64,000 nucleotides of DNA, taken from Paramecium tetraurelia (lineage: Eukaryota). The DNA lies in contig CT868012.1 of the NCBI GenBank assembly GCA_000165425.1, positions 62,001-126,000 on the forward strand, in the 5' to 3' direction. Every line of letters starts with the position of its first letter. Within the stretch, counting starts at the first letter, position 1. The translations under genes and the position numbers were made by a program. Positions 3,426 through 32,600 of this stretch are shown one piece after another. The notes beneath the pieces are model-generated. The model saw only the letters and a program-made list of their open reading frames with translations. It was not told where the DNA came from and did not search any database.

Positions 3426-6400
3426 ATGATCACAAATCAACTCCTTTTTTCATGTCTTATGATGATTGTAAACTCGTGCTCTCAACTTTACAACAATACC
3501 ATGTTTCTGACGGGTACCTACAAAGAAGTTATCAATGTTCCACTTTCCTAAATATTTCTAAATTCGGATTATAGAAACCTTACTTTTAAGGAATCAACCA
3601 AAGACTTTATAATTGCGGCTCCAATTTAACTATATTCAGAATTAAGATTTGGTGAGAAAGCCAATTCGTAAACAATTTCTTCAAAGCTCTTTAAATCTAC
3701 CAAAAGCAGAGATCCGATATAACATATGACTGCTTTGGTTCATTAAGGAAACTATTTCCTATATTAAAATGTGGGTATCTACTAAACTCTCCCGTAAATT
3801 CAGCATGTATCTGCATGCAAAGAAAAACAAGCTTCAATTTGTTATGACATTGTTGAATTAAAAACTTTGGTCATCGTAGAATGCTAAGATACTCTCAACA
3901 ATAGTTATTTTAGCATTATGTAGAATGAGAATGTAAAATAACTAGAAGTAGAAAAACCCAATTCTGAATTTCGAAAACTTGATTAAGTTGACTCCTATTT
4001 GATAAGGGGGACTGTTAATAAAATTGATTTATATATTGAAGAACAAGAGACACTAAAATTTTTAAAATCATTAGATGAATTGTAATTGATCGATTTGCTA
4101 TAAAAAGACAATTTCAAATTGTCAATAAGAGATTTCTAAGCACACACCAATGGCTAGATTAGCATAATGAATGCTTTCGGTGAAATAGTTGTAGTTGAAT
4201 ACAAGAACGACAATTGGCAATTAATTAAGACCATTGACACAGAGATGGATGATATTCAAGGGTATGACTATGATATCTATACCGACTCATATGTGATTAT
4301 GAACAAGTCAGAGATAAGATACAAATAGATAGATGAAGAGTGTTAGAAAAAGGAGTATCTGAATTTTAATGAATCCAACAGAATTTACCTTACCAATGGA
4401 AGTGTATTACTTCACTAGAAGCAAGATATTACCTTATTTACTTTAGGATTGGCAAAATTGTAGACCTTAAATTTAGGGAACTAAAGTTATTAAATAATTA
4501 CCAATCCTTACTCCAATGGATTTATTGCTGTTAGTGATAATATGACATATGCTTATTCAAACAATAAGGAGTATTTCTTATAAGTTACATTTAATCAGAT
4601 ATTGGAGTAGAAATATTTGAAAGTTGTGTTAAATTAAGAAGATATCCCGTGGGATTGTGAAATAACAATTTTCTATAAGACTGAGAATATCAATAATGAT
4701 CAAATCATAACATAACAATATTCGCAAGGTTTGATTGCTTCAGGAGTATATTAGGACAAGGCTAAAGTGAAGTTAAGGCCTGTGTTTTAGGGATCCAATT
4801 TGCAATACAATTTCCAACCTAATTCAATCATTTCCATAACAGTTAATCAATTTAAGTATGCATTCTTGAAGAATGTAACAGAATCCAGGTATATTATTTA
4901 CAGAGAGATATTATAAAGAAGATATTAACCGAAATTATATTTAGTGGAATAAGATTCAAATCTTTAACTAATTGGTTATTCATGCACTAACTTTGCACCA
5001 ATTCACCTTAATTGTCACATTCTTTTTACAAAGCCAGAATTTATCAAATTGTCTGCAACCCAGAATTAGCTTTGGTGGTACAATGAAGATTCTCTGTTCT
5101 TTGCTGTTTTTGGAGACTCAACTATAATAATATACACTTACATATACAAAGACAAAAAGCTTGCTGTTCTAACTGCAATTGTCTTGGAGAGTGATATAAA
5201 ATAGATTGCCACAGATGGCTATCACTTATTTGCGTCAACTGCATAGGATGTTAAGATCTACTCCATAACTGTTGCTGGAAAAGAGAAACTCTTGTAAACC
5301 ATAGAAGTTCAAGTTGACAAACTATATGCATCAGAGGCTTAAAAAAACTACATGTTTTTGGAAGTAGCTAGAACGTTGTACATTTATAACATAGCATACA
5401 ACAAGGAAACACTAATTTAGTTTATAGAAATTGAAAATGATTACGAAGATACTAATTTAGCTATTTTTGACGATTACTTTGTTAGGTTTGGTAAGATCAA
5501 GGACAAAGAGGAATATGATGTAAAGATGTACAATTATAAAAATCAGAAGAACATTTATCTATAGAAATAGATAGGAATTAATGGCTATTCGAAAATTAAT
5601 CTCAATAATATGAAGTATTCATTCATCAATAATTTGTTTTACCTTATTGGTTGGAACACAAAGCGATAAAAACATGTAGTCTTAATCTATTCAACCAAAT
5701 CAAGTAGTTTAGATTCTCTCTTCAGCGTAATTGATGTAACATTTATGGCCTAGATTTCAGCAACTGGAGAATATATCTTTATCACAGATAAAGGAAACAA
5801 TTAGTAGAATTTATAAATATTGTACATTAAAGGATAGTTATTCGTAAGCGCTAAAATAAATGAAAATTATCAATAGGTTGAGTATTCAAAATAGATAAAC
5901 TTAAGTCTCATAATAAATAATGATTCATCTAATAAATTAATCACAACAATTCCAGTAAATATAGTAAACAGAGGAGTCAAATTATTTTAAATTAATGACT
6001 CATTTAATCTAACTTATAAGTCAAGTAGTGATGAAAAACATTGCGTGGACTTAGGACAATCTTGGTACAGTGGTCAAGCCTTGGATTTAGAATTAGCAGA
6101 ACCATCGAAGAATGTTTAATTCAATCCAGTGTTGACTAAATAGAAGGAAACCTTGGAGTTTAGCGTATATATAAGAGAGTTCGATGATGATACATTAGTT
6201 TAAATGATGGGTAACAAGCTTAAGTTTCTAAGGAAGGCAGATCTCTCTGTCACAGAAGAATTTTAATTGGATTAAATGTACACATTTCATAAAATGTTCT
6301 TAATTGATGGACATAATATCTATATTTAAGTTATTACAGATGATACTATCGAATTGAGAATAGTTTAATGTCAAAAATACAAGTGTGCTTTGTTGGAGAA

Positions 6401-7448
6401 TAGGCTTGAATTTAAATCAATGATAAAGAATGTATATCTGCATATGAACTATTTCTTTGTTTATATTGAAAGTTTAGTGGAGGTTTATGACACCAAAGGA
6501 GCTGCAGTTATGTTAGAATCTTTTGAATAGATCCAGAAATTCTAATAGAACCCTGATTTGATTTAAATGGAATTTAGACATTTATAGAAGGATATATATT
6601 AATTTATTTCCGTGGATTATCAGGGTAATCCGGAATTACAAACAAGGCAAATATCTAGAACATCTACAATATCTAATTATAATACTACAAATATATAGAT
6701 TAAGCCAATAATCGCTGAATATAATATCAATGTGTAATAGCAACAATTCTCTGATGGGTTTGTGTTATGGAAAGATGAAATAATCATAATATTTAAGAAC
6801 AGCGCATCGTATTCTTTTAAATTCCAAAATGATTGCTAAAACAAAGAATTATGTGAGATTAGTAAATTTTAATTAAACGGAGTATATCAATAATATGGAG
6901 ATTGGTATTTGCTTGGGATATTCCAAATCTTTTTTGTAAGCCAGAATTTCTTGCATTTGATCTATTTTTAGGCTGATCAAAGTTTGCTTTTAATTTACGA
7001 CCTTTCAACGCCAAGCAGCAATTCCAAACCTAACAATGCGATAGTTGGAATAACATCTCCATAAAAAATAGGTGCTCCGATCTATTAGATTACGTCGTTC
7101 GTGTATAGTAGTGATGAGAAGTTGCATTTGCTGACATCAATTGAAGATAAAGATTAACTCTAACATTACACAATCTAAAGATCCCCTTAATTATGCATCG
7201 ATGAGGACTTCTTTTAAGATAATGTGAAATTTAAATTGTCAAATCTAGATTACTAAATGTATTTAGATGAGAAGGTGAAGATATAGGAATACATGTTACC
7301 AATTCCAAAAGAAGACAGTTTTCCAGCCTGGGCAATAGTGTTGATTGTTCTAGGGACTGTGAGTGTTCTTGGATTTGGGTTATTCATGTATCGCCAAGGT
7401 AAGAGAAATAGAATAAAGGATCAAAGGGTTTTGTTGAATTAAGTTTGA
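3426..7448 (+). CDS. Large type-I membrane protein (~1340 aa), unknown function
   Basis: Signal-like MITNQLLFSCLMMIVNSC. The 4023-nt span is divisible by 3. C-terminal TM FPAWAIVLIVLGTVSVLGFGLFMY, short basic tail, then TGA. Confidence 0.8.
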
Positions 7449-7500
7449 TTTAAATTAATTGTTATATTTATTTATAATTAATTTTGAGATGTAATAATTA

Positions 7501-9693
7501 ATGCTATAAAAATAAAAGTAAGAAGAATTTAATAACAAGTTTTTTGGGAGAGCCAAAAAAGGAATGCTAAAGAGATTCTTTTTTTATGATCGGACTCTAA
7601 ATTATGTAGAAACTCCAATCTTCACAGAATTCAGTGGAAGAAAGTAAATAGTTCCCATGAGGAATACGTAATGTTTAAAACCGACCTGCATTTACGATCT
7701 TCAAGAACTCTATGAACGATATGAGAAATAGAATTATTCAAGTTATGCAAACTTTATGTGTCACACTTGTAGAAAGATGATCGACTTATAGGGTTTTTAT
7801 ATGGATGAAGATATGAGGAAGATTAATGAAGTTATCTGGAACACTTACAACAAATTCAGTATACAATGTTCGAAGGCAGCCATCTTCAAAGATGGTTCAT
7901 GGGAAGCTGTCCTACCAGAGTATTTGAAAAGGATGTATCGTAAAAATGTGGAGGATTACGATGCGAAATAGAATGATGATGATTTGATAGATTAACCTGA
8001 CGAGATACTCAAGTTTGAATTGCCATTGTTGCACGAATTCGATGTTCAGGAATATGCCGAGTTATTGGAACAAGAAGACGAAGGAGATGAGAGACATCAT
8101 GACAGTGACATCTTATTGAGACGCTACAACTTACAAGTAAAGTGGGGAGAATTTACATAATTCAAGAACCAAGTAGCAGTTTCAATTAATGTTATGGGAA
8201 TCTTTATGCGTTATTTACATGATTATCTTGAGGACAGGAAAAACACGTTTAAAATGCAAGCCAAACTCAAATTAGGTGTCTTATGCATTAAAGTTGTAAA
8301 TTATGATCGTTTCTCTAAAAGAGCTGAATTCTTCTTTCTCTCTGACAACTTGGAGGGTCCAAAAGCAAATTACACTGAATATGAGTAGGTTATTATGGCA
8401 ATATACTATGATGAGAGATGGATTGCCTTGATTTGTGACATTGAAGCAAGGAGATTGAAAATGATTGATTTTCTTGAAGAAACCATAGCTCGCACCACCC
8501 TAGATGAAGTCTATGAATTAGGGCAATACTTGATTTCTCAGATCTTTCAGCCTTACAAATTTGCCAAGAACCCCTCAAGAGAGTTGCTTATTGGTTAGAT
8601 TCAAGAGGATATGAGGAATGAAATTCCTAGAAAAATATAATTGTATTGTGATTGTGGTCATCATATTGCATAATATTTCTATTATTACATTTTGGAAGAG
8701 ATAGAATTAATGAAGATTCAACAGAAATGGCCTCAAGATGTAGGACTTAAATAGAAGATCCATAATGTTAAATATAAATTGGGGGAATAGGATTATTTCA
8801 CTGCTAAAATATGTTGGGTTCTACTCAAAATGGCATAAAATACTGGTTTTAAAATACTTGTATATGATATGAAACCGAAGGAGAAAATAGAAAAGGACAC
8901 TCTTGATGATTTTGTAATTGAATAAGCCAGGTTGAAAGCTGAGAAACTTTGGGAGGATAATAAATAACAAAAGCAAACTACATTTTAAGTTGTTCATGGT
9001 TTTAACCAAGTTGAAGAAGTTGTGATATCGAAGAGTAATGATAAGTAAAATGATCAGAAGTAAAATAAACAAAAAAGTAGAGTTGAAAAATATTGGGGAG
9101 TGGAAAGTGGAATTTAATTCAATAATTAAAGAAATTTATAACCTAATAATGCATAATAATAATAAAAGGATAATTCTTTGTTGAGTAATTTGAGCTTTTA
9201 GTTTGGTAATTAAGATAAACCAATAGTGAGACATTAATCATAGCTGAAAGATGACTCTAAATCAATATATGATGTTCTAGGAGAAATGAATGGAAACAAT
9301 AATAATAATAATAATTAAAAGAAAGAAGTGTAGAACTAAAAAAAAGAAAAACCTTTTTTAGTTATGCCTAAAGCATAATTACAATAATATTTATCTGATT
9401 ATAAGCAATAAATCATTACAGAATATAAGTAATAAGCCTTATTGAAAGGATATAAATAACAAATGATTGGAGAATTCAATGTAAGCGGTAAGAAAAAGCA
9501 GGCAGAATACGATTCCAAGCAATTGACTGAGAGCCAATACCATCGATTGTTATTGAATTTGGACAAGAGCTTGAATCAAAGTGAATAGAGGGAATTGAAG
9601 CAGCTACAATCTGAGTTGGGTTTGAACGAACAAGATTTGGCCAATTTGGATGCTTATCAATATGATCAAATACTTGACATGATGAATTAATGA
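7501..9693 (+). CDS. ~730-aa protein: degenerate SP-RING/MIZ-like finger + degenerate Ulp1/SENP (C48)-like domain + Q/N/E-rich tail
   Basis: Single frame containing track ORFs 8194 and 8395. N-terminus has IVPMRNTQCLKPTCIYDL...FMCHTCRK..FYMD; the middle has IMAIYYDERWIALICD..LKMIDFL...QLYCDCGHHIAQF. TGA at 9691-9693. Confidence 0.7.
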
Positions 9694-9720
9694 TTATAAA
9701 TAATTAACAAGCAAGAGCTA

Positions 9721-11718
9721 TCATAATAATAAATCAATTTGTTAAGCTAATTACGATGCGTACAGTTCTGGGTGGGCAGTGGTTTCGTTATTGGAAATCC
9801 AGAACTAATCTAAAATACCTCCTAGACTCGCAACCACATATCCATTGCGAGTCTTGTACATATTTGGAGGCATCTTAATTCCCTCTTCGGCCTCCAAATA
9901 GATCACGGAGAAGGAGTATCCCCACAAAAACTGATCTCTAAGGATCATCAGGTCCTGATTGAGGGTGTTGAGAAATTCTTGTTTCACCTTGGGATTCATC
10001 TTCATCTTGGCATAGGTGTCACTTCCCCCCTTGATTTCCTCGTCGACTTGGCCCACCTAATAGGTGAAGAACCCTTAGATTTTGAAGCCTTACTGCTCCA
10101 AGACGATGGAATTGAGGAGATTCCTCTAGATTAGAGTTGAGAACTGATTATCCTCATTCACGATTGAGTAGAGTCCAATCATGGGGGGGATGAATGATCT
10201 CTAGGCAGAAATGCTTAAGTTGTAAATAGCTGACAGTAAATGCCTTGTCAAATATCTCTTGGCTTAATTATTAATAATGGAGATAAGTACTTCTCCGTCG
10301 TATGTGGTTAGGGTATTAGTTTATGATTTCAGTTTAGAGTTTTGCAGTTATTCTACAAAATGTTTATTAAATTGTTCATCAAATGATGTAATAAATTATT
10401 CGATTGAGTGTATTTAAATGAAAACGGATTCTGCATAACTGGTGCATACAATTTCTGGGACATTTAAGTCGGAATCGCAATCGAAATAGATGATCTTCTA
10501 TCTCATGTGTTTCATGTGATAATGTGATAAATTCGTAATCGTAATGGGTATTATTTAACTGGTGTTCATTTCTCTGATTATTTTGAATATAAAGAGGAAT
10601 TCATTGAATTTCAACTTAATCTGATTATTTTCCATCTGAGATGTCAGTTTTGCAACCCTTATTATAAATGTAATTTATTACAATTCTTCATTGTCCAAAC
10701 AGGTCTTCCGATAGGCTACACTGTTGTCTCTCGTCGTTCCTTGCAGGTAAGAGAGATAATGTGTTTTAATAATCAAGGAATCTGAACTCAAATTCGAAAT
10801 GGAGTTGCTCAAGGCTCTCGCTTCCATTTTGGGTAAGGAAAGTTCGACAATTCCAGATTTTTATTTTTGCAGTTTCCGAGTCAAATAATCCTGAATTGTT
10901 GGTTCTTGAGATCTGATCGAACTCAAACACACTCCTCCTAATGACATAGGGATTGCTAACACATAGAAAGCAACATTGTAGGTTTCTGTATCGCTATCTG
11001 CAAGAGAAATGATTGTCAAGATCAATACCTATAATAATCAACAGGAGATTGATACCGGTAGTATTCTAATGATGAGGAAAGTTATGATGTAAATCAAATT
11101 CACTTTGTACTTTTTGTCTTAGATCCGTGAAGTCAAGTCTTTGCCTAGTACTTTTCTTAGTCCATGAATTTATGTACAAGTCCAAACTAATATAATGAAG
11201 GTGATGGATGTGAGTATTAACAAAAATGCTGCGAACAGATTTTCAGGAAGTAAGGAACACATGCCTATTTTGTTGAATCCTATGGCATCGAATAAGAATG
11301 CCAATAGAGCAAAAAATGTGGAACCTGACACAACAGCCAAATGTCGCAATTTGTAATTCTTGCTGAATTTCGAACTCAATATGCCCAAGGATTCGAAGGA
11401 GTAAAGGTTGATATTTGTAAAATATGCGAATGATGTGAATACATTAAGTATGCCAATTGCTATGCAACCTTTGCCTTAATTGTCCACATAAAATGTTGTC
11501 TCATAAGTATCATGTGCGTCGAAATAAAATTGTGAAAGTATTAAGAAAAAGGAGAACATGCATTCTAAAATGAGAACAATTTGAATCGTGTGACCTTGTC
11601 TTTCATGAAGCTGTTTTATTCTGCATATAAACAGCAGAATTAGGATGGTGAGTATAAAGGACAAGGAGTTGAGTAGTATTACAAATATTCTAAAGGTGGA
11701 ATCCTCGTCTTTTATCAT
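9721..11718 (-). CDS. 7TM GPCR fused to C-terminal PIP5K-like domain (GPCR-PIPK), ~656 aa
   Basis: Track ORFs 11476-11718, 11170-11388 and 9805-10056 join in one frame in code 6, with a 27-nt intron at 11029-11055. Multiple TM helices with conserved Cys positions are followed by PIPK-like TYDGEVLIS, SFIPPMIGLYSI, LNQDLMIL..WGYSF, LGGILD and HPELY. Confidence 0.8.
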
Positions 11719-19910: not shown

Positions 19911-22900
19911 ATGCTATTATTTTTATTGTTCATTCCATCATTTACTTTGTATTGCTGTATGAATATGTATTAATCAAGGAGAAAACGATTTAACGATATA
20001 TGCATCGACCTACGAGCGGAAGGAATGGGATTTGAACAAATACTTTTATGGAGTAGATCTGACCTTTTCATTAAATGGCAATGAGGGGAATTTCGAACTA
20101 CTTCAAATCCTCCAGCTTTTAGAAGTCACCCAGGTTGACTTAAGTAGATAAACATATATGTCTTATAGGCGATGTTACATTGCTAGACATCCACTCAATG
20201 AAGACAGTGGGATTTGATACAAATCAGAAGGCCATTTTAATAAAGAATGAGTCCCTTTATTAAATAAGATACCCATCAGTTGAGATAGTGTATTACTAGA
20301 CCGATCAGCCATGTTCTTTCGTGAGAGTGATCTAAAAAGATGCAGTGCTGCTAGCGAATGGCAAACGATTCTGGATTGCCAAGCAATAGAATTACTACTA
20401 GGTTGACAGTTAAATCTTAGATATTGATATATACGAACAAAAGATATTGATCCTCACAAAGAACAATGTCCATATCTATTATTACGATGGATTTGTATGT
20501 GACTTTAATACAGTCATAAATCAAACAGTATTAACATCTCTGTTGCCTCAAACAGACAAATCATTCGAAATCATTAATGCCAAATTGGCACTAAAAGACC
20601 AAGTGGTTCTTTTGGATAAGTAATTAGGAGTCATCATATTAGAGAGTATTGATTTAGATCATTTTTCATTGGTACATCATCATAATTACACCTACTTCTC
20701 CACTTACTATTCGATGAGCTTGATGTTTGAAGATTTGTCCTATTAAATTATAGTTTCAACAATTCAGAATTCTATCTACGTACTTTCATTGGAAGAAATC
20801 GATTATTACTTTTGGCTTAATGGAGCATTGAACCTATCCTAATTCAATATGTCTGGACTCAGAGTAAATAGAGAACAGAAATACATTTGTCTATACAACT
20901 CCACTTTTATCAGCATCTACTAAATTTCAAACATGCAAAGAATGTATTCAAAATTATTTGAAACCCCAATATTGTTTGACTTCAGCTACTAGCAATCAAT
21001 AATCTATCTGGTCACTCAAACTACTCAACAAGTGTATTACGCCTCCACTGCAATGCTCATCATGAAACCCTTTACTCAACCTTCGAATGATTTCCAAAGA
21101 TTGCAAGTGATTGGCACAGAGGAATCACAATGTGCCATCACATTCAACTACATCATTTACGATTATTTAGATAACAATCTGTATCAGAAAACCAATGTGA
21201 TCAATCAGATCAAGCCATTTGTCAATTATCCAACCTATCCCTAGGCATCTATTTTCAAGGAATTAGGAGTGACAGGATCCAACATCAATGCTAAAATATA
21301 ATTGAATGATCAAAGCATTTCATTGAAGTTGGGATACTTAGAGGACATGAAAATTACTGGCATCATCTGGCCTGAAAACATGTTGTTTATTAGTATGTTT
21401 TCCAGTTGGAATTATGCTTATTACGTGATTTAAGTGCAAAGCTTTAAAGCCACTCTATACCAATGCTAAATATTCATACTCTTATATGAATTAAGATGTT
21501 AAAAAGTTCATGATTTCAGTCCGAACAGAGAATTAGATAATGATTCTTTTTAATGGATTGAAAAAGACGTAGTCATCTTTGGGTATATATCTAAATTCAG
21601 ACACACGATTGAGATCTTTTAATTAAAATAATCTATAGTCACAAAGTTATTTGTAATTTCTACAAGTTTGAAGGATGAAAATTCATTGATCAATTCCTTT
21701 TGTCTCACGGAATTTTACATATATGTGGTCCTAGAAAAAAAGGGAGAAATCCAAATATATTCCTTATAAAATTAAGAATTTGTCTACTCAATCACATCAT
21801 AGGATGTTCAACCGTACGAATTGAAGCCTAAATTTGTGAGAGTGGACAAGAAGCAGAATATGATAATCATCGCTAATTAAGATTCTCTGATCGCTGGATT
21901 TATGTATGATATCTTTAATATGGTGAATTACTTTTCCTTTCCAGAATGTCGATAGATAGAGGTGAGTTTGACAAGTTACTCATTTTTTGTAGCATTACAT
22001 TACGGTCATCAATAGGAGCTGAGAGAGTACAGTATGAGGAGAAGATAGGTGTCCTTCTTGAAGAAGATTCCACTATTCCATTACATATTGTAAACACCAT
22101 TGTAGATGATGTCATCCTTCGATTAAATCATAGTAAGAGCGTACACCCCAGTTCTCTAATAGACAGTCTTATTAGTATATTAACCGGATGTTAATCTAAG
22201 AGAATCCCTTTTAACTCACATTCCTTTAGGATGGTATTTGAAGGACACTCTAAGATTGGGAATTGCAAAGATGTACACTTATGGTTTATCGATACATGCA
22301 AGTTCAAAGTTTGGAATAAAGAACCTATTAATTTATAGGAATTTTCAAGCGGTGATATCATCATAATGGAATGATGAATACATTCACAAGAAGGAAATAG
22401 TAATTCAATATGATTCTATTGATTCACCGGAGCAAATAGAATTTAAATAGAATGTAACATTTTTGAATTTGATGACAAATATAGTTGCAGTGGTGAGCAA
22501 TGAAAGTCTGGTGGTCAATCAGGCTACGATGAAAATATAGAATGGGTGGTTTAAAGGACAGATAATTAAATATTAAGTAGAATGTTAACAATGCTAAGAT
22601 TAAATCTTGCTTACTCAAAAGATTGATATAATTCAGAGTCTAGAGTATTATTCTAATTTGTTGGGTGAATGTAAATTGGATGACGATTACTTTGTATTTT
22701 TGACCCCAAATCAATTGATATTTTTGGATTCGATGCATTATGTCAAGCATCCCTCCTTCTACTTCAATTTAGACCTATAATATTAAATTGGTAAGATTTG
22801 GTGTAAGAAAGATACAATACTAATAACTGGTTAGACCAACACATTGTAAGGATTTGTCTAGTTGATAAAATTCTAAGACAAACAATATCAAATGATCGGA

Positions 22901-24029
22901 GAACCCTTCTAATTTAAGTTGAGTTATCAGCTTATCTAATTGGAGTTGCTGGATGATGGTAACTTTCTGATTTTGGATGGGTATCAAATAATTGGAGGGT
23001 ATATGTATTACACTTCTAGACTTTGTGCTTACCATTATGAATTTACTCCACCAAAATCAGTCTCATATACTTACACACCTTGTGTGGACTAACGGAAATT
23101 CGGTGAATTTTTTGCATCCAGTTTCATAGCATACAAGGTTAATAACAAATATAGAGTATTCTTGAGTGATTTATCATAAGGGTTATTCATCTAAGATTTC
23201 CATTACATCGACAGTTCAATCAAATGCATAACAGCAGATGAGGCTCTCTACAGAGTGTCTCTGAGGCAACCAATAGAATAGATGATGGGACTGAATATTG
23301 ACGATGAAGTTCGATATCTTCAGGTGATTAAGAATGGAGACCCCTAAAACAACTTCCAGATATTCAAAATAATTCTCTTGACAAACTCAATAGCTCATTT
23401 ATCTCTGGTCTTGTACTTCGAAGACAATGTCTATCAGAAACTCTACATCGATGAAATGATCCAAAGATACTCCGATTTCGATGTGTTCTACTAGGCTTCC
23501 ATGGAAAAAGACTACCTGGCCTTGGCTTATCAGGCCAATTCCTACACCATCTGCATCTATAAACTAGGTTAGAAACAGTAGCCTATATTGATGATAGGAG
23601 GAGTTGAAACCTAATAGTCTTATCCAAACCAATTTTTCTCTCTTCACACCGACGAGAATGGGTAGACTCTGTTACATATGAACAAAGAGAGCAGGAAACT
23701 GAATCTTTACATCGTGGATGAATTTGCTACTCTCTCCTTTCTTGGCAATGCTACAGAACAACCAATCACTCTGACTGCCATCAATCAACTTACTTCAGCC
23801 TCTATCATTCTGAATGTTCAAATGAGCACAGTCAACCCTACTAATTTGTAAGTGTTTAATTATCTACACTAGATATTGGGTGTTGTTGACCATCTTGTTC
23901 TGTGTTCTGTTTTTGTTGTCCCTCCTAGCACTCATAGTTTATTAGAAGAATAAGAGATCGAGAAACAAACTTTAATCATAAACCAAAAGGAACAAAGGTG
24001 ATGCATACTGTTTATATAATTAATAATGA
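19911..24029 (+). CDS. Large type-I membrane protein (~1350 aa), architecture similar to 3426-7448
   Basis: Signal-like MLLFLLFIPSFTL. Introns at about 20144-20168 and 23848-23872. Long open frame, then C-terminal TM YWVLLTILFCVLFLLSLLALIVY and a basic tail. The junction near 19957-19981 is unresolved. Confidence 0.75.
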
Positions 24030-26641: not shown

Positions 26642-29600
26642 TCAGAAAATTCCAAATCCTATCAATCCATAACTTATAGCAGTATCCAATTTCTATTTCA
26701 TTTCTTGATAACTTTTGTAGAGCGGCAATTCTATTAAATTAAAGCAAGTCCTGGTCGTTGGTATTAGGGTGTCCTTGAGATCCTGTTTGAACTCAACTTG
26801 TATCTTAAACTTCTCATTCGATGGCAACGTTGGACTTCCCGTGATGTATTGTAGTAGTTCTTTGAGTCTCTTGCTGCTCGATGTGTTGACATAATTGGTA
26901 AAGAATGAGATGTGATAGTCCTAGCCTCCCTTGAAACTCAAAATATTCAAAATCTATTCAGGTTTGATATCTTGAACTCCCAAAGTTATGAGACCCATAT
27001 CATTCGGTTTAAAGAACTTCTTTAAATCCTATAATTTCTATATAAATACATAGTACCTTAATTTCTAAAACTGATTGGAATCCTGAAATGAATGGCGTGT
27101 AAATATCCTAATACTGTGTCTGGATCACGTATTCTGCTACTTTGTCCAAATATACCGAACAGTTCTCTTTATTCACCGTTACATTCTAACCATCTGGAAT
27201 CAATTGAATCAATTCTTTTTTCTTCTAGTAAGTGAAATTAATTCCTAATGACTCCAATGTTTTTTCATCATATGAAAGCATCATTTCATAGTTTTAAAAT
27301 GTTATCGGATCTAAGAATCCATTGAGATCTTTAAATTGGATTTTCTCGGAAAATATCACTTTCCAAAACTATGGTTAGAATTGAATTCCTATTTGATGAT
27401 TATTAAATATTGAATTAGCCACGAACTATAAATAATATCTATAATTTTAAATACCTTCCCAAAAACATATGCGTAATCATTTTTCTTAGGTATATTTAAA
27501 AATTTTGGATCTATATAGTAATATCCTGGTGCCAACATACTAAAATATCCATATTATTCTGATTTTAGATTTTCTCCTTTCAACTCATTTCCTATTAATG
27601 AATAGAACTCTTTCCTTGGACCTCCTTAATCATAACCAGGTTCATTTATAAATTTAATCATTAATGGCCCAATAAGCTTCTCGTCTTTTAACTTCAGCAA
27701 ACTATCTAAGAAGTTTGCACGTACTATTAAAAGTTACTTCTCAACTTTATATATCTTTTTGCCTTCATTGTCGTATAAAATCAATCTCTAGAAATCCTGC
27801 ATATTCTTCTCGAATGACACACCTTGTAACTCCAATTTCTTTTCTAAAAATATTAAAGAATATATTACTCATTTTTTCTATGTCATTGATTTTTAGAACT
27901 AATTCTATCTCATCTACTTCTGTTATATCGTCCTCATCTATTGGCAGCACTCTCAGTGACACCTCTATTTTGCCTTCCAGAGATAATTTACTGTAATTTT
28001 ACTCTATATTAGACTTTTTGTGAGAACTTTCCACTTCTATTTTAACTGCATTCAACGCATTCTCTATTGATCCATAAATATTTTGTAACTTATCCTTCAA
28101 GAAAACATTAAATGTAATTTCCTAATAATAAGGAATGGTTTTGAGTTTTTCAGGAAAATCTAATTTAGATTTTTCTACATCCACTGAATTAGCCAAAACT
28201 ACAAAGTAGCTATCCACTTTATAGTTATTAATATATAGGTAATAGATCCCTTTAATTTGAGGTTCCCAATAAATTTTCAATCCAAAGTCTTCCTTTGTAT
28301 AATTAGGAACTATTTAGATCTTTTGATAAATTGAGTGCACAAAAACTATGGTTTAAAGAGTAAAATTGGGTGCCATATTCTCAAAATTGTCTTTAATTTC
28401 AATCACGTCTAACCGTTCTGATCCTACTTTTGTGGATTGATTTATTAATTATCTACTTTAAATATTCAGTACATTATTACTGAGGATCTGATTCAAATTA
28501 ATATTTTATTGGTTTTACTACATTTTCATATCTTCATTAACTGACAAAGACTTCATAATGAGTTTAAGGAATTTAGTTGTGCTAGAGACAATTTCTTTAA
28601 TTTTGTTTTATTACTCATTTTTAACAATGTTTTTGAATTCATTTTCAAACCATACACCAGTATGATAATACTTATACATCTATGAATCCTAAGTAGGAAG
28701 AAACTTTAGTTTGATTTCAGAACTGTAATCCTGTTTTATGCATGCTACTTAATACTAAGTAGTCTATATTGTAAATTCAAGTGGTTTAGAACAATTGAAC
28801 TCTATGAATATTATATTTGATGTAATGAATTTTACTTTGGCCTTTAAAGTGGTTGAATAATTTTTAAAATAAGAAAGAGGTCTTTCAACATTATTTTTGG
28901 TTATTATTTTTATTTTTGATAATTGCTCATCCAAAGATAAGTATTCCTATAAGCCGTTGATCAATATATATATTGGAAATCCGCATTTCTATTCCAAAGA
29001 GTTCTACTTTAAGTATTAAACCAATGGAGAGTATTTTTGACAACTCTTAATGCATACAACCTTTTGATATACTTACCCTTTCACTATTATAAATGCTGTT
29101 TCAAAATCTCTTGGGTCTAATCTACCTTCCAATTTTTTTATTTTTTATAATCCATAATGTATGTTCAATTCATATGATTATTAAACTTGTTGTTTCTCCT
29201 TTCTGATAAAATCATCAGCACTTAAAATCATTGATTACATCATCAATTAGTTCTTACTTAGTATCTTTTTATCCAATTCATTGTAACTACTTTAATACTA
29301 GTTTGTGTAGTTATTTAAATAATCTAATAAGAAGTCTTCCAACCTGAAATCTTAGAATCTTTCATAAAATAATTGCACTTCATTTCTGTCCTTAGAAAAC
29401 TAATATAGCTATATAGATTTTTAAGTTTATTGGGTTATCAGAAATAGAATCTTTTTATCGTTTTTTATTGCAATCAATTTATGGAGATATTTTGTCATTA
29501 GAAGCAAAATCAAGATTTCTTATTCAAACTGTTTCTCATAATTCTAATCGATGATTATTTCAAATTTTGCTTTTTCCATTAATAGATCACTAAAATTGTA

Positions 29601-32600
29601 TTTAGTAAAATTGATTATTAGTTGATTAAGAAACTATCCGATTTTATTTCCAGAGGGGACCTCAATGCTTAAAGTTTTGATAGGAACCTAACTTTTTTTA
29701 GTTATTTCTTCCTTTTATATTAAAAACGTTTTTAATTTCAGGACTCCGTTTTCAAAGAAAATTAATTAATTGTTACTTTCAGTTGTAAGATCAAAAGTAA
29801 ATTCAATTACCTTAAATATACTCATCAATAAGTTTTTCTTGATCTATTATTGATTGATGTCAAACATAAAACCAAGAGCATTTTCAACTTAAGGTATGTA
29901 TTTATCAGTAAAGAATGTCTCATACCCTTATTGAAATTCCACAAAAGCAATCTGGGATTACATGATATTATCCAAATAATAAGATGGATTTGAATTAAAA
30001 TCATCACTAAACTTTATTATCATCTAGATTTTTGACAGTTCATTGTGAGACTCCTTAAATTGAGTTAACTATTTGACATGATACTAGGCAATGTCATTTG
30101 AATCAAAATAACTTGCTATATTCAACAAATCCAATTTCAATTTATCTATTTAGAAATCTATATCATTTATTTTAATAATCATCTTCTAGCAGTTCGTGAC
30201 CTCAGTTTTAGATTACTTAGTTTTTCCAGATTCAAATTCATAAAGGATTTAGTTTGGAAATATTGGGATAATTTCAGCTACGGTGAATTAACTGTAGGTT
30301 TGAACTTAATTCTTACCAAAAGCAATATCCAATAGTTATCGCTTAATAGATTCACTATCTGTTTCTTAGATTTGAATCAGCTTTTTGGCCAAACGTTATT
30401 CGTGAATAAAGTACAGATTTCCATTTTGATCAGTGACGTATAAGTTGATCATATTATTAATGAAATCTGGATCATCTGGCCATCCTTTTTCAAACAATAT
30501 CACTGCAATTATGTCTTCATTGTCAACGATTTCTATTCTATCATCTTCGCTATCTTTCTTCCTCATCTTATTCGACATAGCACAATATTATTCTAGTTAT
30601 TCTTACGATAAGGTAGAAACTGAAGATTCATCAAATTAATAAAATACTAGCTTTCCTTATCTACTATTATCTACCAATTAACATAGAGTTGTCTAAAGAT
30701 ATTGGTATTCATTCTTGTGAACCACTATTAATAGATCCCCAATTTGATTCTTAGACATGTAAAAGTTGGGCTTTAACTAAAATCCAAAGTATAAACTAAT
30801 AATCTTATCACAATTTCGATTGGGATATCTAATCTTCGTTATGACTTTTGCTTTTTAGACAGCCACAATTTTACGATGATTCGGTAATTCATCCTATGAA
30901 CGATTGAAGCCTTACCTTAATGAATGAAGAAGCGACGACAGTTTGGTTTAAAATTGATATTCGAAATTGTGACTTTACAACTATTCGATCAACAACTATT
31001 CAGATTTATCCAAAAAGAACTCAGATAATTTAATTAGGAGTTCTTTGATTTAAGTTTGCATTCTTAGCTATTACTTTCTATCTTTCAGAGTTCTTATTTA
31101 CTGAATTTCAGATTACAATATGTCTAATAATGATTGATGATTCACTGTTATGATAACATCTTTATTAAGCATTTTACTGAGATTTTATGAAACTTATTGT
31201 AGTTTACGATCAACATCCAATTTAGCAAATATATATTAAATTATCTATTTAGAATTAAAGATTTAAAACAGTAAATCTTCTTCGTTTATAATATTGCAGT
31301 AATAATAGTCAATTTCTTATTATTTCAAAAAATTGTGGCTTTGATTTTGTCTATTAGTGGAAACCTATTGTTTTAATTGAGGTTACTTCTTGATATTCAT
31401 AATGTTCAATCTAACTACCAGAGTTTGTTATTGCAGAAAATAATGAGTTTAACCAAATCTAAAATACTAGTCCAGCCCTCCTTCTTAATACGTATTTTCA
31501 AATGGTAAATCCTAGATCTCATTGAATTCTACATAAATTCTTCTTAAAACTGATAAAATGTTTTGGTATTTAAGCATATTGCAATATAGAACTTACAGCA
31601 GAATCATTATTAAGGTATTCCAATTTAAAATAGAGTCCAAAAGTGATAGGATATCAACTGGTTTATTATCATAAGTGTTGAAATCAATCATGTTGCTTAT
31701 CAAAACTTCTAGAGTGGAAATTGCACTAATTCTCCACTAAATCTTTTCAACATCCCCTAGATTTTTAGCATATTACTTAACATTTTCATGAAACTAGTGG
31801 AGTTTTTAGAACACCACTTAGATTGTGTATGTGGAGAAAAGGGATTTTTCACTATAGAATTTTTCATCCTTTACATAGTAAGGGTAATTAATTTGCCATT
31901 ATTTCAAGTCTTCATTTGCAATAGCTGATTTCAGATTTTCATGGTATTAATAAAACTGGGATATAACAAAGGAGATGGACTCCCTACCATTATATTTCCT
32001 TAAAAATTCGGCCTCTGTGCATTGTTCTAATGTTACTATTGATTCTAAAGGGTTGAAAAAATGGTAATACTCCATAAAGATTATTTATGACTTGTTCACC
32101 TTTGAATCTCTCACTTTATAATTGTTATTATTGACTAATTCGAGCATGAAATCATAATTCTATTTAATAAATTAAATATCTTCTTATTTAACTTGCTTTG
32201 AGTTTGGATTCTCTGTTTATTTTTTTTCAAAGATCGTCGACTATTTATCGAATTAAGTCACCTACTTCTAGAAGGTATTTTGTTAACCTAAGTGTGGAGC
32301 CTCCATGTCATCAATTGAATAGTTTCCTTCAAGTAGTCCAAGTATATCGTTTTATTAATACTCCGATAAATTAAGAATTTCGTTGATATTTTCTTTGATA
32401 TTCTTTTCTAATCTGATTTTTTTCAATTATTCAATTAGTTTATCATATTTTTCTTAGCTGAAATAAAGTTCGTCTTTATTGTATTCTAAAGGAAGGATAA
32501 TCTAATCATCCGATTGATACATTTGTTCATTTTCAAACTTAACAATAAACTCTGGTTAATAATCTCTCTATATAAATCCTAAATAAATTAAATAGTTTTT

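What the first reader, a model, noticed from the sequence alone, without database searches (positions are those of the whole stretch)
7501..9693. SUMO-ligase-type SP-RING-like finger fused to an apparently dead SUMO-protease (Ulp1/SENP) domain
Seen: one frame encodes an N-terminal motif (about 7600-7830, PMRNTQCLKPTCIYDL...CHTC...YMD) resembling the Siz/PIAS SP-RING. A C48-like domain follows (about 8110-8720), where the catalytic xHW reads ERW (8413-8421), DS reads DF, and Q-x-N-x-x-DCG reads IQLYCDCG (Cys kept, 8653). The His of the SP-RING CxH ligand also appears replaced. Established: SP-RINGs recruit Ubc9 to add SUMO, and Ulp1 domains remove it using a His-Asp-Cys triad. Inference: a writer-like and eraser-like module in one protein, possibly a pseudo-enzyme SUMO reader or scaffold. 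SUMO acts in ciliate sexual development, so a developmental role is conceivable. I do not know of a characterised protein with this architecture.
Basis: partly seen in the sequence, partly recalled or inferred. Interest (0 to 1): 0.75.

Follow-up and report, generated by a model that had tools for sequence, protein, structure and literature searches.

The report
SUMO-ligase finger fused to inactive protease
One expressed ciliate gene joins a module shaped like the part of SUMO ligases that adds the SUMO tag to a domain shaped like the enzymes that remove it. The remover domain has lost a key catalytic residue in almost all of its relatives, and the combination has apparently not been described before.

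Summary
Window 7489/7501-9693 (+) is one intron-less ORF under the ciliate code, and stranded RNA reads cover it.

- **N-terminal module (residues ~4-138).** The model is confident (pLDDT 96.5). It matches only Siz1, Siz2, PIAS2 and PIAS3 strongly (Z 11.3-12.2); the next match, Nse2, scores 6.0. The SP-RING His ligand is absent (K60). Four Cys (C58, C63, C87, C90) are almost invariant in the family.
- **Second domain (residues ~177-448).** It has the Ulp1/SENP fold (Z 15-16, 211 of 226 SENP2 residues). The catalytic His is Arg in 27 of 29 relatives. Asp is kept in 29 of 30 and Cys in 18 of 23.
- **Sequence searches.** Pfam finds nothing in the protein itself. A family profile reaches Ulp1 at 9.8e-9.
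- **Family.** Fifteen homologues carry both domains. None has an informative name.

Most likely it is an atypical SUMO E3 ligase or scaffold that uses an inactive protease domain as a binding module. That mechanism is inferred. The Ulp1 Asp needed for SUMO binding is not conserved, which counts against canonical SUMO binding. I found no paper describing this fusion. A developmental role remains untested.

The parts
7489..9693 (+). Whole gene: a single intron-less ORF. The TGA stop is at 9691-9693.
   Evidence: Stranded oligo-dT RNA reads cover 7470-9635 on one strand with no joints. A 2244-nt contig of run X4 equals 7503-9746 exactly.
7510..7914 (+). Siz/PIAS-like module (residues ~4-138): leading helices, SP-RING and the start of an SP-CTD-like region.
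   Evidence: AF2 pLDDT 96.5. VIA: Siz2 6u75_B Z 12.2, rmsd 2.7, 119 aligned, model 4-137 to chain 291-420; Siz1 3i2d Z 11.9 (chain 315-444); PIAS2 Z 11.7; PIAS3 Z 11.3; next best Nse2 Z 6.0.
7597..7806 (+). SP-RING core (residues ~33-102), containing P52-x-R54-N55-x2-C58-x-K60-x2-C63-x-Y65-D66 ... F85-x-C87-x2-C90 ... F99-x2-D102.
   Evidence: Column counts in the 50-sequence alignment A1: R54 47/47, C58 47/48, C63 48/49, C87 50/50, C90 50/50, F85 40/50, F99 48/49, D102 47/49.
7672..7770 (+). Putative Cys4 zinc site: C58 (7672-7674), C63 (7687-7689), C87 (7759-7761), C90 (7768-7770). K60 (7678-7680) sits where the SP-RING has its His ligand.
   Evidence: 47 of 50 sequences have all four Cys. 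The spacing is 4/23/2 in 37 of those 47. His stands at position 60 in 1 of 49. Zinc binding itself was not tested.
7807..7974 (+). Helix, beta-hairpin, helix after the finger (residues 103-158), SP-CTD-like.
   Evidence: Secondary structure. The Siz/PIAS alignments run on to model residues 136-138. W113 31/41 and N117 35/40.
8029..8844 (+). C48 (Ulp1/SENP) fold domain (residues ~177-448).
   Evidence: AF2 pLDDT 83.7. VIA: SENP2 2io0_A Z 15.9, rmsd 3.2, 211 aligned of 226; Ulp1 2hl8 Z 15.2, 210 of 219. Foldseek E 1.1e-6. Family profile against Ulp1 1euv E 9.8e-9.
8413..8421 (+). E305-R306-W307, where Ulp1/SENP have x-His-Trp. R306 (8416-8418) replaces the catalytic His.
   Evidence: HMM alignment puts 'derW' opposite Ulp1 'sHW' and SENP1 'vHW'. 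Column: R 27, H 1, K 1 of 29.
8467..8469 (+). D323 in I-D-F-L, the position of the catalytic Asp (Ulp1 D-S-L).
   Evidence: alignment. Column: D 29, N 1 of 30.
8653..8655 (+). C385 in D-C-G, the position of the catalytic Cys.
   Evidence: alignment. Column: C 18, F 4, K 1 of 23.
8926..9522 (+). Low-complexity Q/K/N-rich tail (residues 476-674) with no recognised domain.
   Evidence: Composition of the whole tail, residues 476-730: Q 43, K 30, N 28 of 255. No Pfam hit. No homologue covers this stretch.
9523..9657 (+). Short conserved C-terminal segment (residues 675-719) of unknown role.
   Evidence: P0067 matches 675-719 at 56% identity, E 2.4e-5.

Best explanation
The gene encodes a member of a conserved, unannotated protein family. 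A Siz/PIAS-type SUMO-ligase module (SP-RING plus SP-CTD-like region) is fused to a Ulp1/SENP-fold domain that cannot work as a His-Asp-Cys protease, because the histidine is arginine.

The ligase module has no PINIT domain, and its zinc site is probably built from four cysteines instead of Cys3His.

Most likely the protein is an atypical SUMO E3 ligase or scaffold. The finger would recruit the SUMO E2 (Ubc9). The inactive protease domain would act as a non-cleaving binding module that holds SUMO, a SUMO-modified protein or another substrate next to the charged E2. In that role it would take over from the substrate-binding PINIT domain and/or the SUMO-interacting motif of classical Siz/PIAS ligases.

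Shown: one ORF on one expressed strand; both folds (by prediction); the residue replacements and their conservation across the family. Inferred: zinc binding, Ubc9 binding, loss of protease activity, and what the second domain binds. My confidence is about 0.9 for the architecture and about 0.45 for the ligase-with-binding-module mechanism; the confidence value given for this explanation is that of the mechanism.
For: - **One unit.** There is no stop between the domains. RNA reads of three stranded runs lie on one strand across 7470-9635 with no joints, and the contig of X4 equals 7503-9746. Twelve homologues match across both domains in a single stretch. Three more carry both motif sets.
- **Ligase module.** The 10 best Foldseek hits are all Siz1, Siz2, PIAS2 or PIAS3. 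VIA Z is 11.3-12.2, against 6.0 for Nse2 and at most 5.1 for RING and U-box domains. The nearest ESM clusters are zf-MIZ, at 0.90, 0.89 and 0.89. The aromatic residue before C87 is kept (F 40 of 50). From recall, PIAS has the Trp it needs for E2 binding at that place.
- **Precedent for an atypical finger.** Tetrahymena Ema2 has an atypical SP-RING with a changed zinc ligand and still binds Ubc9 in vitro (PMC10830130, passages read).
- **Protease fold with conserved Arg.**
- **The old active-site region is still under constraint.** R306, D323, F324 and L325 are at least 90% conserved in the 16 two-domain proteins.
- **Precedent for a binding role.** An inactive Ulp1 catalytic domain, Ulp1(3)C580S, binds SUMO and SUMO conjugates (PMC3216068, abstract and section 9 read).
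- **No SIM to do the job.** No canonical SUMO-interacting motif was found outside the folded domains, which leaves room for the second domain to supply SUMO contact.
Against: - No sequence-profile method links the finger to SP-RING. Pfam gives 0 hits for the protein. zf-MIZ is found in 0 of 28 homologues. The family profile finds no Siz, PIAS or Nse2 chain among its 16 PDB hits at E<=10.
- The SP-RING His ligand is missing (His in 1 of 49). I could not see model coordinates, so the geometry of the four Cys is untested.
- Ulp1's SUMO-binding Asp (D451) corresponds to I229 here. That column is Asp in 1 and Glu in 2 of 27 relatives. The tunnel Trp (Ulp1 W448) is Trp in 0 of 27 (read off; register).
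- NEDD8 protease NEDP1 matches almost as well (Z 15.0), so the fold does not by itself name SUMO as the ligand.
- The Cys is Phe in 4 of 23 relatives, so it is not essential family-wide.
- No binding or activity was tested.
Confidence: 0.45

Rival explanations
1. Scaffold with no SUMO chemistry. Both modules are relics that keep only their folds. The protein acts as an adaptor in a process unrelated to SUMO, and the second domain binds some other partner.
For: No zf-MIZ or C48 hit in the protein itself. The His ligand of the finger and the His of the triad are both replaced. The Ulp1 SUMO-binding Asp and the tunnel Trp are not conserved (read off).
Against: The motifs that matter for E2-binding fingers are the most conserved columns: P-x-R-N, four Cys, F85, F99, D102. 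The former active-site motifs of the second domain are conserved too. That is not expected if only the fold mattered.
Confidence: 0.2
2. The second domain reads or handles another ubiquitin-like protein (NEDD8, ubiquitin or a ciliate-specific one) rather than SUMO.
For: NEDP1/Den1 matches nearly as well as SENP and Ulp1 (Z 14.3-15.0 against 15-16). CE-clan enzymes acting on ubiquitin also match (XopD Z 11.1). The SUMO-contact Asp is not kept (read off).
Against: The sequence profile hits only Ulp1, SENP1 and SENP2 among proteases (12 of 16 PDB hits). The partner module is of the SUMO-specific Siz/PIAS type.
Confidence: 0.1
3. It is still a working SUMO protease with an unusual Arg-Asp-Cys site, and the SP-RING module merely targets it to Ubc9 or to sites of sumoylation.
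For: Asp (29 of 30) and Cys (18 of 23) are kept and the site is conserved. One relative (P0043) has His at that position.
Against: By established knowledge of clan CE cysteine proteases, the His is the general base, and Arg cannot take that role at physiological pH. The tunnel Trp is absent in 27 of 27 relatives. Four relatives have Phe for the Cys.
Confidence: 0.05
4. Cys-relay SUMO ligase. C385, made reactive by the neighbouring R306, takes SUMO from Ubc9 as a thioester and passes it to substrates, as RBR and HECT ligases do for ubiquitin.
For: An E2-binding finger and a SUMO-tail-binding fold with a kept nucleophile but no hydrolysis-promoting His sit in one chain. The Arg is strictly conserved, 27 of 29.
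Against: There is no direct evidence. The Cys is lost in 5 of 23 relatives. Canonical SUMO contacts are not conserved. No such SUMO ligase is known (from recall).
Confidence: 0.05
5. The resemblance is chance, or the two halves are separate genes.
For: Pfam and a PDB sequence search of the single protein find nothing. RNA depth is low (about 0.4-10x), with empty bins at 8610-8723 in two of three runs.
Against: Structure matches have large margins. The profile hit to Ulp1 is 9.8e-9. The frame is continuous. Fifteen relatives carry both domains. No joints or clustered read ends lie inside the gene.
Confidence: 0.02

Closest known systems
Siz/PIAS SUMO E3 ligases (yeast Siz1 and Siz2, human PIAS2 and PIAS3)
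   Same: The predicted fold of residues ~4-138 superposes on the SP-RING and the start of the SP-CTD (Z 11.3-12.2, 114-120 residues, rmsd 2.5-2.7). The motif register is the same: P-x-R-x3-C-x-[H]-x2-C ... aromatic-x-C-x2-C ... D. The Siz/PIAS side of that comparison is from recall.
   Different: No PINIT or SAP domain. The His zinc ligand is replaced (K60) and four Cys are conserved instead. No canonical SIM was found. No Pfam zf-MIZ hit. A C48-fold domain follows.
Ulp1/SENP SUMO proteases (MEROPS C48, clan CE)
   Same: The fold covers 210-215 of ~220-226 residues (Z 15-16). The family profile hits Ulp1 at 9.8e-9. Asp, Cys and the Trp after the His position are kept.
   Different: The catalytic His is Arg (27 of 29). 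The tunnel Trp and the SUMO-binding Asp of the W-L-N-D motif are not conserved (read off). The protein itself falls below Pfam detection.
Tetrahymena Ema2 (SUMO E3 ligase in DNA elimination; PMC10830130)
   Same: A ciliate protein with an atypical SP-RING whose zinc ligands depart from the consensus, yet it binds Ubc9 (passages read).
   Different: In Ema2 the first Cys is replaced by His. Here it is the His ligand that is replaced. The passages I read report no protease-like domain for Ema2. Sequence relatedness was not tested.
Engineered SUMO trap Ulp1(3)C580S (PMC3216068)
   Same: An inactive Ulp1 catalytic domain used purely as a SUMO and SUMO-conjugate binder. This is the working model for the second domain here.
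   Different: It is man-made and inactivated at the Cys, not the His. It depends on D451, which has no conserved counterpart here.
Nse2/Mms21 SP-RING of the Smc5/6 complex
   Same: General SP-RING fold.
   Different: A clearly weaker match (Z 6.0 or less). There is no Smc5-binding helical arm here.

Membership tests
Siz/PIAS SP-RING (Pfam zf-MIZ, PF02891) | Sequence-profile match to zf-MIZ | tested here: not met
   0 families at E<=10 for the protein. zf-MIZ in 0 of 28 homologues at E<=1. No Siz, PIAS or Nse2 chain among the 16 PDB hits of the family profile.
Siz/PIAS SP-RING (Pfam zf-MIZ, PF02891) | SP-RING fold with flanking SP-CTD, as in solved Siz/PIAS structures | tested here: met
   Predicted model (pLDDT 96.5). 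Foldseek top 10 hits are all Siz/PIAS, E 5e-6 to 8e-4. VIA Z 11.3-12.2, against 6.0 for the next family. This is a prediction, not a solved structure.
Siz/PIAS SP-RING (Pfam zf-MIZ, PF02891) | Single zinc site C-x-H ... C-x2-C (the definition is from recall and from PMC10830130) | tested here: not met
   The His position is K60, and His stands there in 1 of 49 relatives. C58, C87 and C90 are kept, and C63 is an added conserved Cys, which suggests a Cys4 variant. Metal binding is not testable with these tools.
Siz/PIAS SP-RING (Pfam zf-MIZ, PF02891) | Binds the SUMO E2 Ubc9 and stimulates SUMO transfer | not testable with these tools
The aromatic before C87 is conserved (F 40 of 50), which is only suggestive.
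Siz/PIAS ligases (whole-protein architecture) | PINIT domain before the SP-RING and a SIM after the SP-CTD (from recall) | tested here: not met
   Only ~30 residues precede the finger. No PINIT hit. No canonical SIM outside the folded domains (a simple pattern scan).
Peptidase C48 (Ulp1/SENP; Pfam PF02902) | C48 fold and sequence-profile relatedness | tested here: met
   VIA Z 15.9 to SENP2 (211 of 226) and Z 15.2 to Ulp1. Family profile against 1euv E 9.8e-9. PF02902 at the homologous position in P0014 (5e-12) and P0010 (3.9e-4). The protein alone gets no Pfam hit.
Peptidase C48 (Ulp1/SENP; Pfam PF02902) | Catalytic triad His-Asp-Cys | tested here: not met
   R306 stands at the His position (R 27, H 1, K 1 of 29). 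D323 is kept (29 of 30). C385 is kept (18 of 23).
Peptidase C48 (Ulp1/SENP; Pfam PF02902) | Oxyanion-hole Gln before the Cys | tested here: inconclusive
   Q380 lies one residue closer to the Cys than in Ulp1. The family column is mostly Asn (N 11, Q 2 of 23). The alignment in this loop is uncertain.
Peptidase C48 (Ulp1/SENP; Pfam PF02902) | SUMO contacts: tunnel Trp and Asp of the W-L-N-D motif (Ulp1 W448 and D451; D451N abolishes SUMO binding, PMC3216068) | tested here: not met
   The aligned residues are A226 and I229. The columns hold Trp in 0 of 27 and Asp in 1 of 27 (read off; register).
Peptidase C48 (Ulp1/SENP; Pfam PF02902) | Cleaves SUMO precursors or conjugates | not testable with these tools
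   Needs an enzyme assay.

The most novel reading that the evidence does not exclude
The family is a new mechanistic class of SUMO ligase that works through a covalent intermediate. The SP-RING docks Ubc9~SUMO. The Ulp-fold domain threads the SUMO tail into its old active site. C385, with its pKa lowered by the conserved R306 and with no His to promote hydrolysis, takes SUMO as a thioester and hands it to a substrate lysine. This would be an RBR/HECT-like relay built from a protease turned backwards.
Probability: 0.05. Interest if true: 0.9.

Novelty: new variant of a known kind. Interest (0 to 1): 0.6.

Why it matters
Adding and removing SUMO are normally done by separate proteins. This family puts a Siz/PIAS-type ligase module and a protease-fold domain in one chain, and its relatives almost always have arginine where the catalytic histidine should be. 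That points to a natural pseudo-protease recruited into a ligase.

If the second domain binds SUMO or SUMO conjugates, it would be a naturally evolved counterpart of the laboratory SUMO trap made from inactive Ulp1. It would also be a new way for a SUMO ligase to find its targets without a PINIT domain or a SIM.

The family is invisible to Pfam. The sources named no function for any of the 30 relatives I looked up, so annotation pipelines miss it. SUMO is required for programmed DNA elimination in Paramecium and Tetrahymena (as cited in PMC10830130). Unrecognised SUMO ligases in ciliates are therefore directly relevant, although nothing here links this gene to that process.

Tried and rejected
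- **Single-sequence searches found nothing.** Pfam gave 0 families at E<=10 and PDB phmmer gave 0.
- **The word-indexed protein search found little.** It returned only the protein itself. With a 16-sequence profile it added one 196-aa relative.
- **No whole genome is held for the window.** Paralogues, and the organism's SUMO and Ubc9, could not be fetched. I therefore did not use complex prediction. A SUMO or Ubc9 docking test was impossible, and docking the two halves on each other would not have changed my odds.
- **The search for related loci could not run with alignments A1 and A3** because no conserved stretch was usable. A single protein (P0014) then gave 5 loci.
- **Earlier findings of the scan:** none by sequence or by place.
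- **Run index:** no RNA holder listed. The raw-read RNA runs were laid instead.
- **SIM scan:** 6 pattern matches. Five lie in residues 174-311, inside or at the edge of the modelled C48-fold domain. The sixth (LLNL, residue 684) lies in the conserved C-terminal segment. None lies in the linker or the low-complexity tail.
- **Transposon-derived PHD+Ulp1 protein, rejected.** This was suggested by ESM clusters at 0.76-0.78, a weak lead. The N-terminal domain is SP-RING-like, not PHD. The neighbouring genes are ordinary cellular ones: PIP5K, ABC transporter, kinesin, MFS, BEACH, kinase, MCU.
- **Two separate genes, rejected**.
- **Literature:**
  - 'SP-RING'+'Ulp1'+'ciliate' gave 2 papers (listing only), neither on such a protein.
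  - 'zf-MIZ'+'Peptidase_C48' gave 2 papers. In PMC2408969 I read the passages and they report no fusion. PMC5976635 was seen as a listing only.
  - The searches listed no paper on this architecture.
  - Only open-access papers and bioRxiv are covered.
Full report
**1. What is there**

Under the ciliate nuclear code (TAA/TAG = Gln), the + strand has one open frame from 7459 to the TGA at 9691-9693. The identical public protein is 734 aa, so its model starts at the ATG at 7489 and has no intron.

- residues 52-102, PMRNTQCLKPTCIYDL...CHTC...YMD
- E305-R306-W307 at 8413-8421
- I-D323-F-L
- D-C385-G, with the Cys at 8653-8655

**2. It is one expressed unit**

Three stranded oligo-dT RNA runs of the same species label (X21-X23) put reads on 7470-9635. 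All have the first mate on the minus strand. The upstream + strand gene shows the same orientation, and the downstream minus-strand gene shows the opposite one.

- Depth is low, about 0.4-10x, against 10-56x for the neighbouring gene.
- It dips at 7470-7583, the gap between the genes.
- No joints and no clusters of read ends lie inside the gene.
- The bin 8610-8723 is empty in two of the three runs. At this depth I treat that as sampling.
- In run X4 (kind only guessed to be RNA), a contig of 2244 nt equals 7503-9746 exactly. Separate contigs end at 7491 and start at 9717.

The index itself lists no RNA holder.

**3. The protein has relatives, nearly all unnamed**

| Search | Result |
|---|---|
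| Pfam, protein alone | 0 families at E<=10 |
| PDB sequences, protein alone | 0 hits |
| Exhaustive phmmer, 1.84 billion representatives | 73 proteins at E<=1e-3, 36 at <=1e-10, 6 at <=1e-30 |

Twelve of the phmmer hits match across both halves in one stretch (P0004, 5, 6, 7, 10, 14, 15, 16, 19, 28, 33, 34; 24-30% identity). Three more (P0017, P0027, P0043) carry both motif sets.

Thirty hits were looked up. None has an informative name; two members of one cluster are labelled 'hypothetical protein'.

A profile search of the word-indexed collection added one named relative, P0089. It is a 196-aa 'unnamed protein product (macronuclear) [Paramecium tetraurelia]' at 70% identity. The window therefore probably comes from Paramecium or a close relative; this is an inference.

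Several fragment hits start and stop where the window has in-frame TAA/TAG. P0003 covers residues 53-218, between Q49 and Q220. That is what standard-code gene calling on ciliate DNA would produce.

One relative was read from its own DNA (L001). It has no in-frame TAA/TAG and ends at TAA, so the family also occurs in an organism that uses TAA as a stop.

**4. The N-terminal module is Siz/PIAS-like**

With a 50-sequence alignment, AlphaFold2 gives residues 1-158 a mean pLDDT of 96.5.

- The ten best Foldseek matches in the PDB are all Siz1, Siz2, PIAS2 or PIAS3 (E 5.1e-6 to 7.6e-4). Nse2 follows at E 0.2 or weaker.
- VIA-align results:

| Match | Z | Notes |
|---|---|---|
| Siz2 6u75_B | 12.2 | rmsd 2.7, 119 aligned, model 4-137 on chain 291-420 |
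| Siz1 3i2d | 11.9 | chain 315-444 |
| PIAS2 | 11.7 | |
| PIAS3 | 11.3 | |
| Nse2 | 6.0 | next family |
| RING and U-box domains | at most 5.1 | |

- The match therefore covers the SP-RING, the helix before it and the start of the SP-CTD.
- Language-model features point the same way. The nearest named clusters are zf-MIZ at 0.90, 0.89 and 0.89 (a lead, not proof).

Against membership by sequence: zf-MIZ is found in 0 of 28 homologues at E<=1. The family profile finds no Siz, PIAS or Nse2 chain at E<=10.

The conserved columns are those of an E2-binding finger: P52 44/46, R54 47/47, N55 45/48, C58 47/48, C63 48/49, Y65 44/49, F85 40/50, C87 50/50, C90 50/50, F99 48/49, D102 47/49.

The SP-RING His ligand position is K60, and His stands there in 1 of 49 sequences. 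All four Cys are present in 47 of 50 sequences, with spacing 4/23/2 in 37 of those 47. I read this as a Cys4 variant of the single SP-RING zinc site. That is an inference, because AlphaFold2 models no metal and I could not see coordinates.

Tetrahymena Ema2 is a precedent. It has an atypical SP-RING with a changed zinc ligand and still binds Ubc9 (PMC10830130, passages read).

**5. The second domain has the Ulp1/SENP fold, with Arg for the catalytic His**

The family profile hits Ulp1 (1euv) at 9.8e-9, and SENP1 and SENP2 down to 1.4e-2. Twelve of its 16 PDB hits are these proteases. The alignments put:
- the family's 'derW' opposite Ulp1 'sHW' and SENP1 'vHW' (Ulp1 and SENP1 rows)
- 'iiDFL' opposite Ulp1 'yvDSL'
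- 'sDCGlyv' opposite Ulp1 'yDCGiyv'

Pfam finds Peptidase_C48 at the homologous place in P0014 (5e-12), P0010 (3.9e-4), P0039 (0.012) and P0066 (0.014). Overall, 7 of 28 homologues have a C48 hit somewhere.

The model of residues 162-475 has pLDDT 83.7. It matches SENP2 at Foldseek E 1.1e-6. VIA gives Z 15.9 to SENP2 (rmsd 3.2, 211 of 226 residues), Z 15.2 to Ulp1 (210 of 219) and Z 15.0 to NEDP1.

Column counts in a 34-sequence alignment:

| Position | Residues found |
|---|---|
| Catalytic His | R 27, H 1 (P0043), K 1 (P0068), of 29 |
| Following Trp | W 26, Y 3 |
| Catalytic Asp | D 29, N 1, of 30 |
| Catalytic Cys | C 18, F 4 (P0005, P0015, P0028, P0033), K 1, of 23 |

In the 16 two-domain proteins, R306, D323, F324 and L325 are at least 90% conserved. 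So the replacement is an old, selected feature of the family, and the former active-site region is still under constraint.

By established knowledge of clan CE cysteine proteases, the His is the general base. I therefore infer that the domain is not a conventional protease. No assay was possible.

**6. What speaks against a simple 'SUMO reader'**

Using the register, Ulp1's W-L-N-D motif falls on A226-V-S-I229.
- The Trp column holds Trp in 0 of 27 relatives.
- The Asp column holds Asp in 1 and Glu in 2 of 27 (read off the block printed).
- Ulp1 D451N abolishes SUMO binding, even in the inactive trap Ulp1(3)C580S (PMC3216068, section 9 read).

If the domain binds SUMO, it does so with altered contacts. 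NEDP1's nearly equal structural score means the fold alone does not name the ligand.

**7. Most likely mechanism**

I favour an atypical SUMO E3 ligase or scaffold (about 0.45).
- The finger recruits Ubc9.
- The protease-fold domain is a non-cleaving binding module.
- It stands in for the PINIT domain (absent, since only ~30 residues precede the finger) and for the SIM (none found outside folded parts) of classical Siz/PIAS ligases.

The natural analogy is the laboratory SUMO trap made from inactive Ulp1 (PMC3216068, abstract).

The rivals are listed with their evidence in the rival explanations: a scaffold without SUMO chemistry (0.2), a reader of another ubiquitin-like protein (0.1), an unusual but active protease (0.05), and a Cys-relay ligase using C385 and R306 (0.05). 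The last is the boldest reading the data allow.

**8. Known or new**

I found no paper describing an SP-RING fused to a C48 domain.
- 'SP-RING'+'Ulp1'+'ciliate' gave 2 papers (listing only), neither about such a protein.
- 'zf-MIZ'+'Peptidase_C48' gave 2 papers. One was read in passages and one was seen as a listing; no fusion is reported.
- Further searches listed none.
- These searches cover only open-access papers and bioRxiv.

I rate it a new variant of known kinds: a new domain architecture, a conserved pseudo-protease and a Cys4 SP-RING variant. It is not a new kind of system.

**9. Limits**

- No whole genome was available, so the organism's SUMO and Ubc9 could not be fetched and no complex prediction was made.
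- Both fold assignments rest on predicted structures.
- RNA depth is low, and the growth conditions of the runs are unknown to me. Nothing can be said about developmental expression.

Noticed in passing
P0089 (relative found; not in the window): The only named relative is a 196-aa Paramecium tetraurelia protein at 70% identity. It looks like a decaying duplicate. At the two invariant Cys positions it reads R and Y (NFMRHTYRK against NFMCHTCRK here), and it breaks off early in the second domain.
   Followed up: partly
P0017 residues 833-1054; also P0014/L001, P0019 and P0072: Some family members carry a second, C-terminal C48 domain. P0017's keeps His and Asp but has Ser where the catalytic Cys should be ('pqDSa', aligned to the Cys position of SENP2). 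P0014 and P0019 have a similar D-S-G there. In these proteins one domain is Arg-Asp-Cys and the other His-Asp-Ser, so each lacks a different triad member.
   Followed up: partly
L001:2001-4910: The gene for relative P0014 has no in-frame TAA/TAG and ends at TAA. The family is therefore not confined to organisms with the TAA/TAG=Gln code.
   Followed up: partly
window 7449-7488 and 9694-9746: Gene spacing is very tight. About 40 nt separate the upstream gene's stop (7448) from the ATG at 7489. The convergent downstream ORF ends at 9721, 27 nt after this gene's stop. The contigs of run X4 for the two genes overlap at 9717-9746, which suggests overlapping 3' ends.
   Followed up: no
window 10015: All RNA reads show A where the window has G (8 of 8, 36 of 36 and 50 of 50 first-mate-on-+ reads in three runs). 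This is in the neighbouring PIP5K-like gene on the minus strand. It is probably a strain difference rather than editing.
   Followed up: no
window 27765-38411 (-), 3426-7448 (+), 20075-24001 (+): Three very long uninterrupted ORFs (3548, 1340 and 1308 aa) have no Pfam match at E<=0.001. In the printed translation, the 1340-aa one ends in a hydrophobic stretch followed by basic residues. I read that as a possible membrane anchor; no transmembrane prediction was run.
   Followed up: no
window 9523-9657: The last ~45 residues before the C-terminus (675-719) are conserved in a fragment from another organism (P0067, 56% identity), while the ~200 residues before them are low-complexity. This is an unassigned short C-terminal motif.
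   Followed up: no
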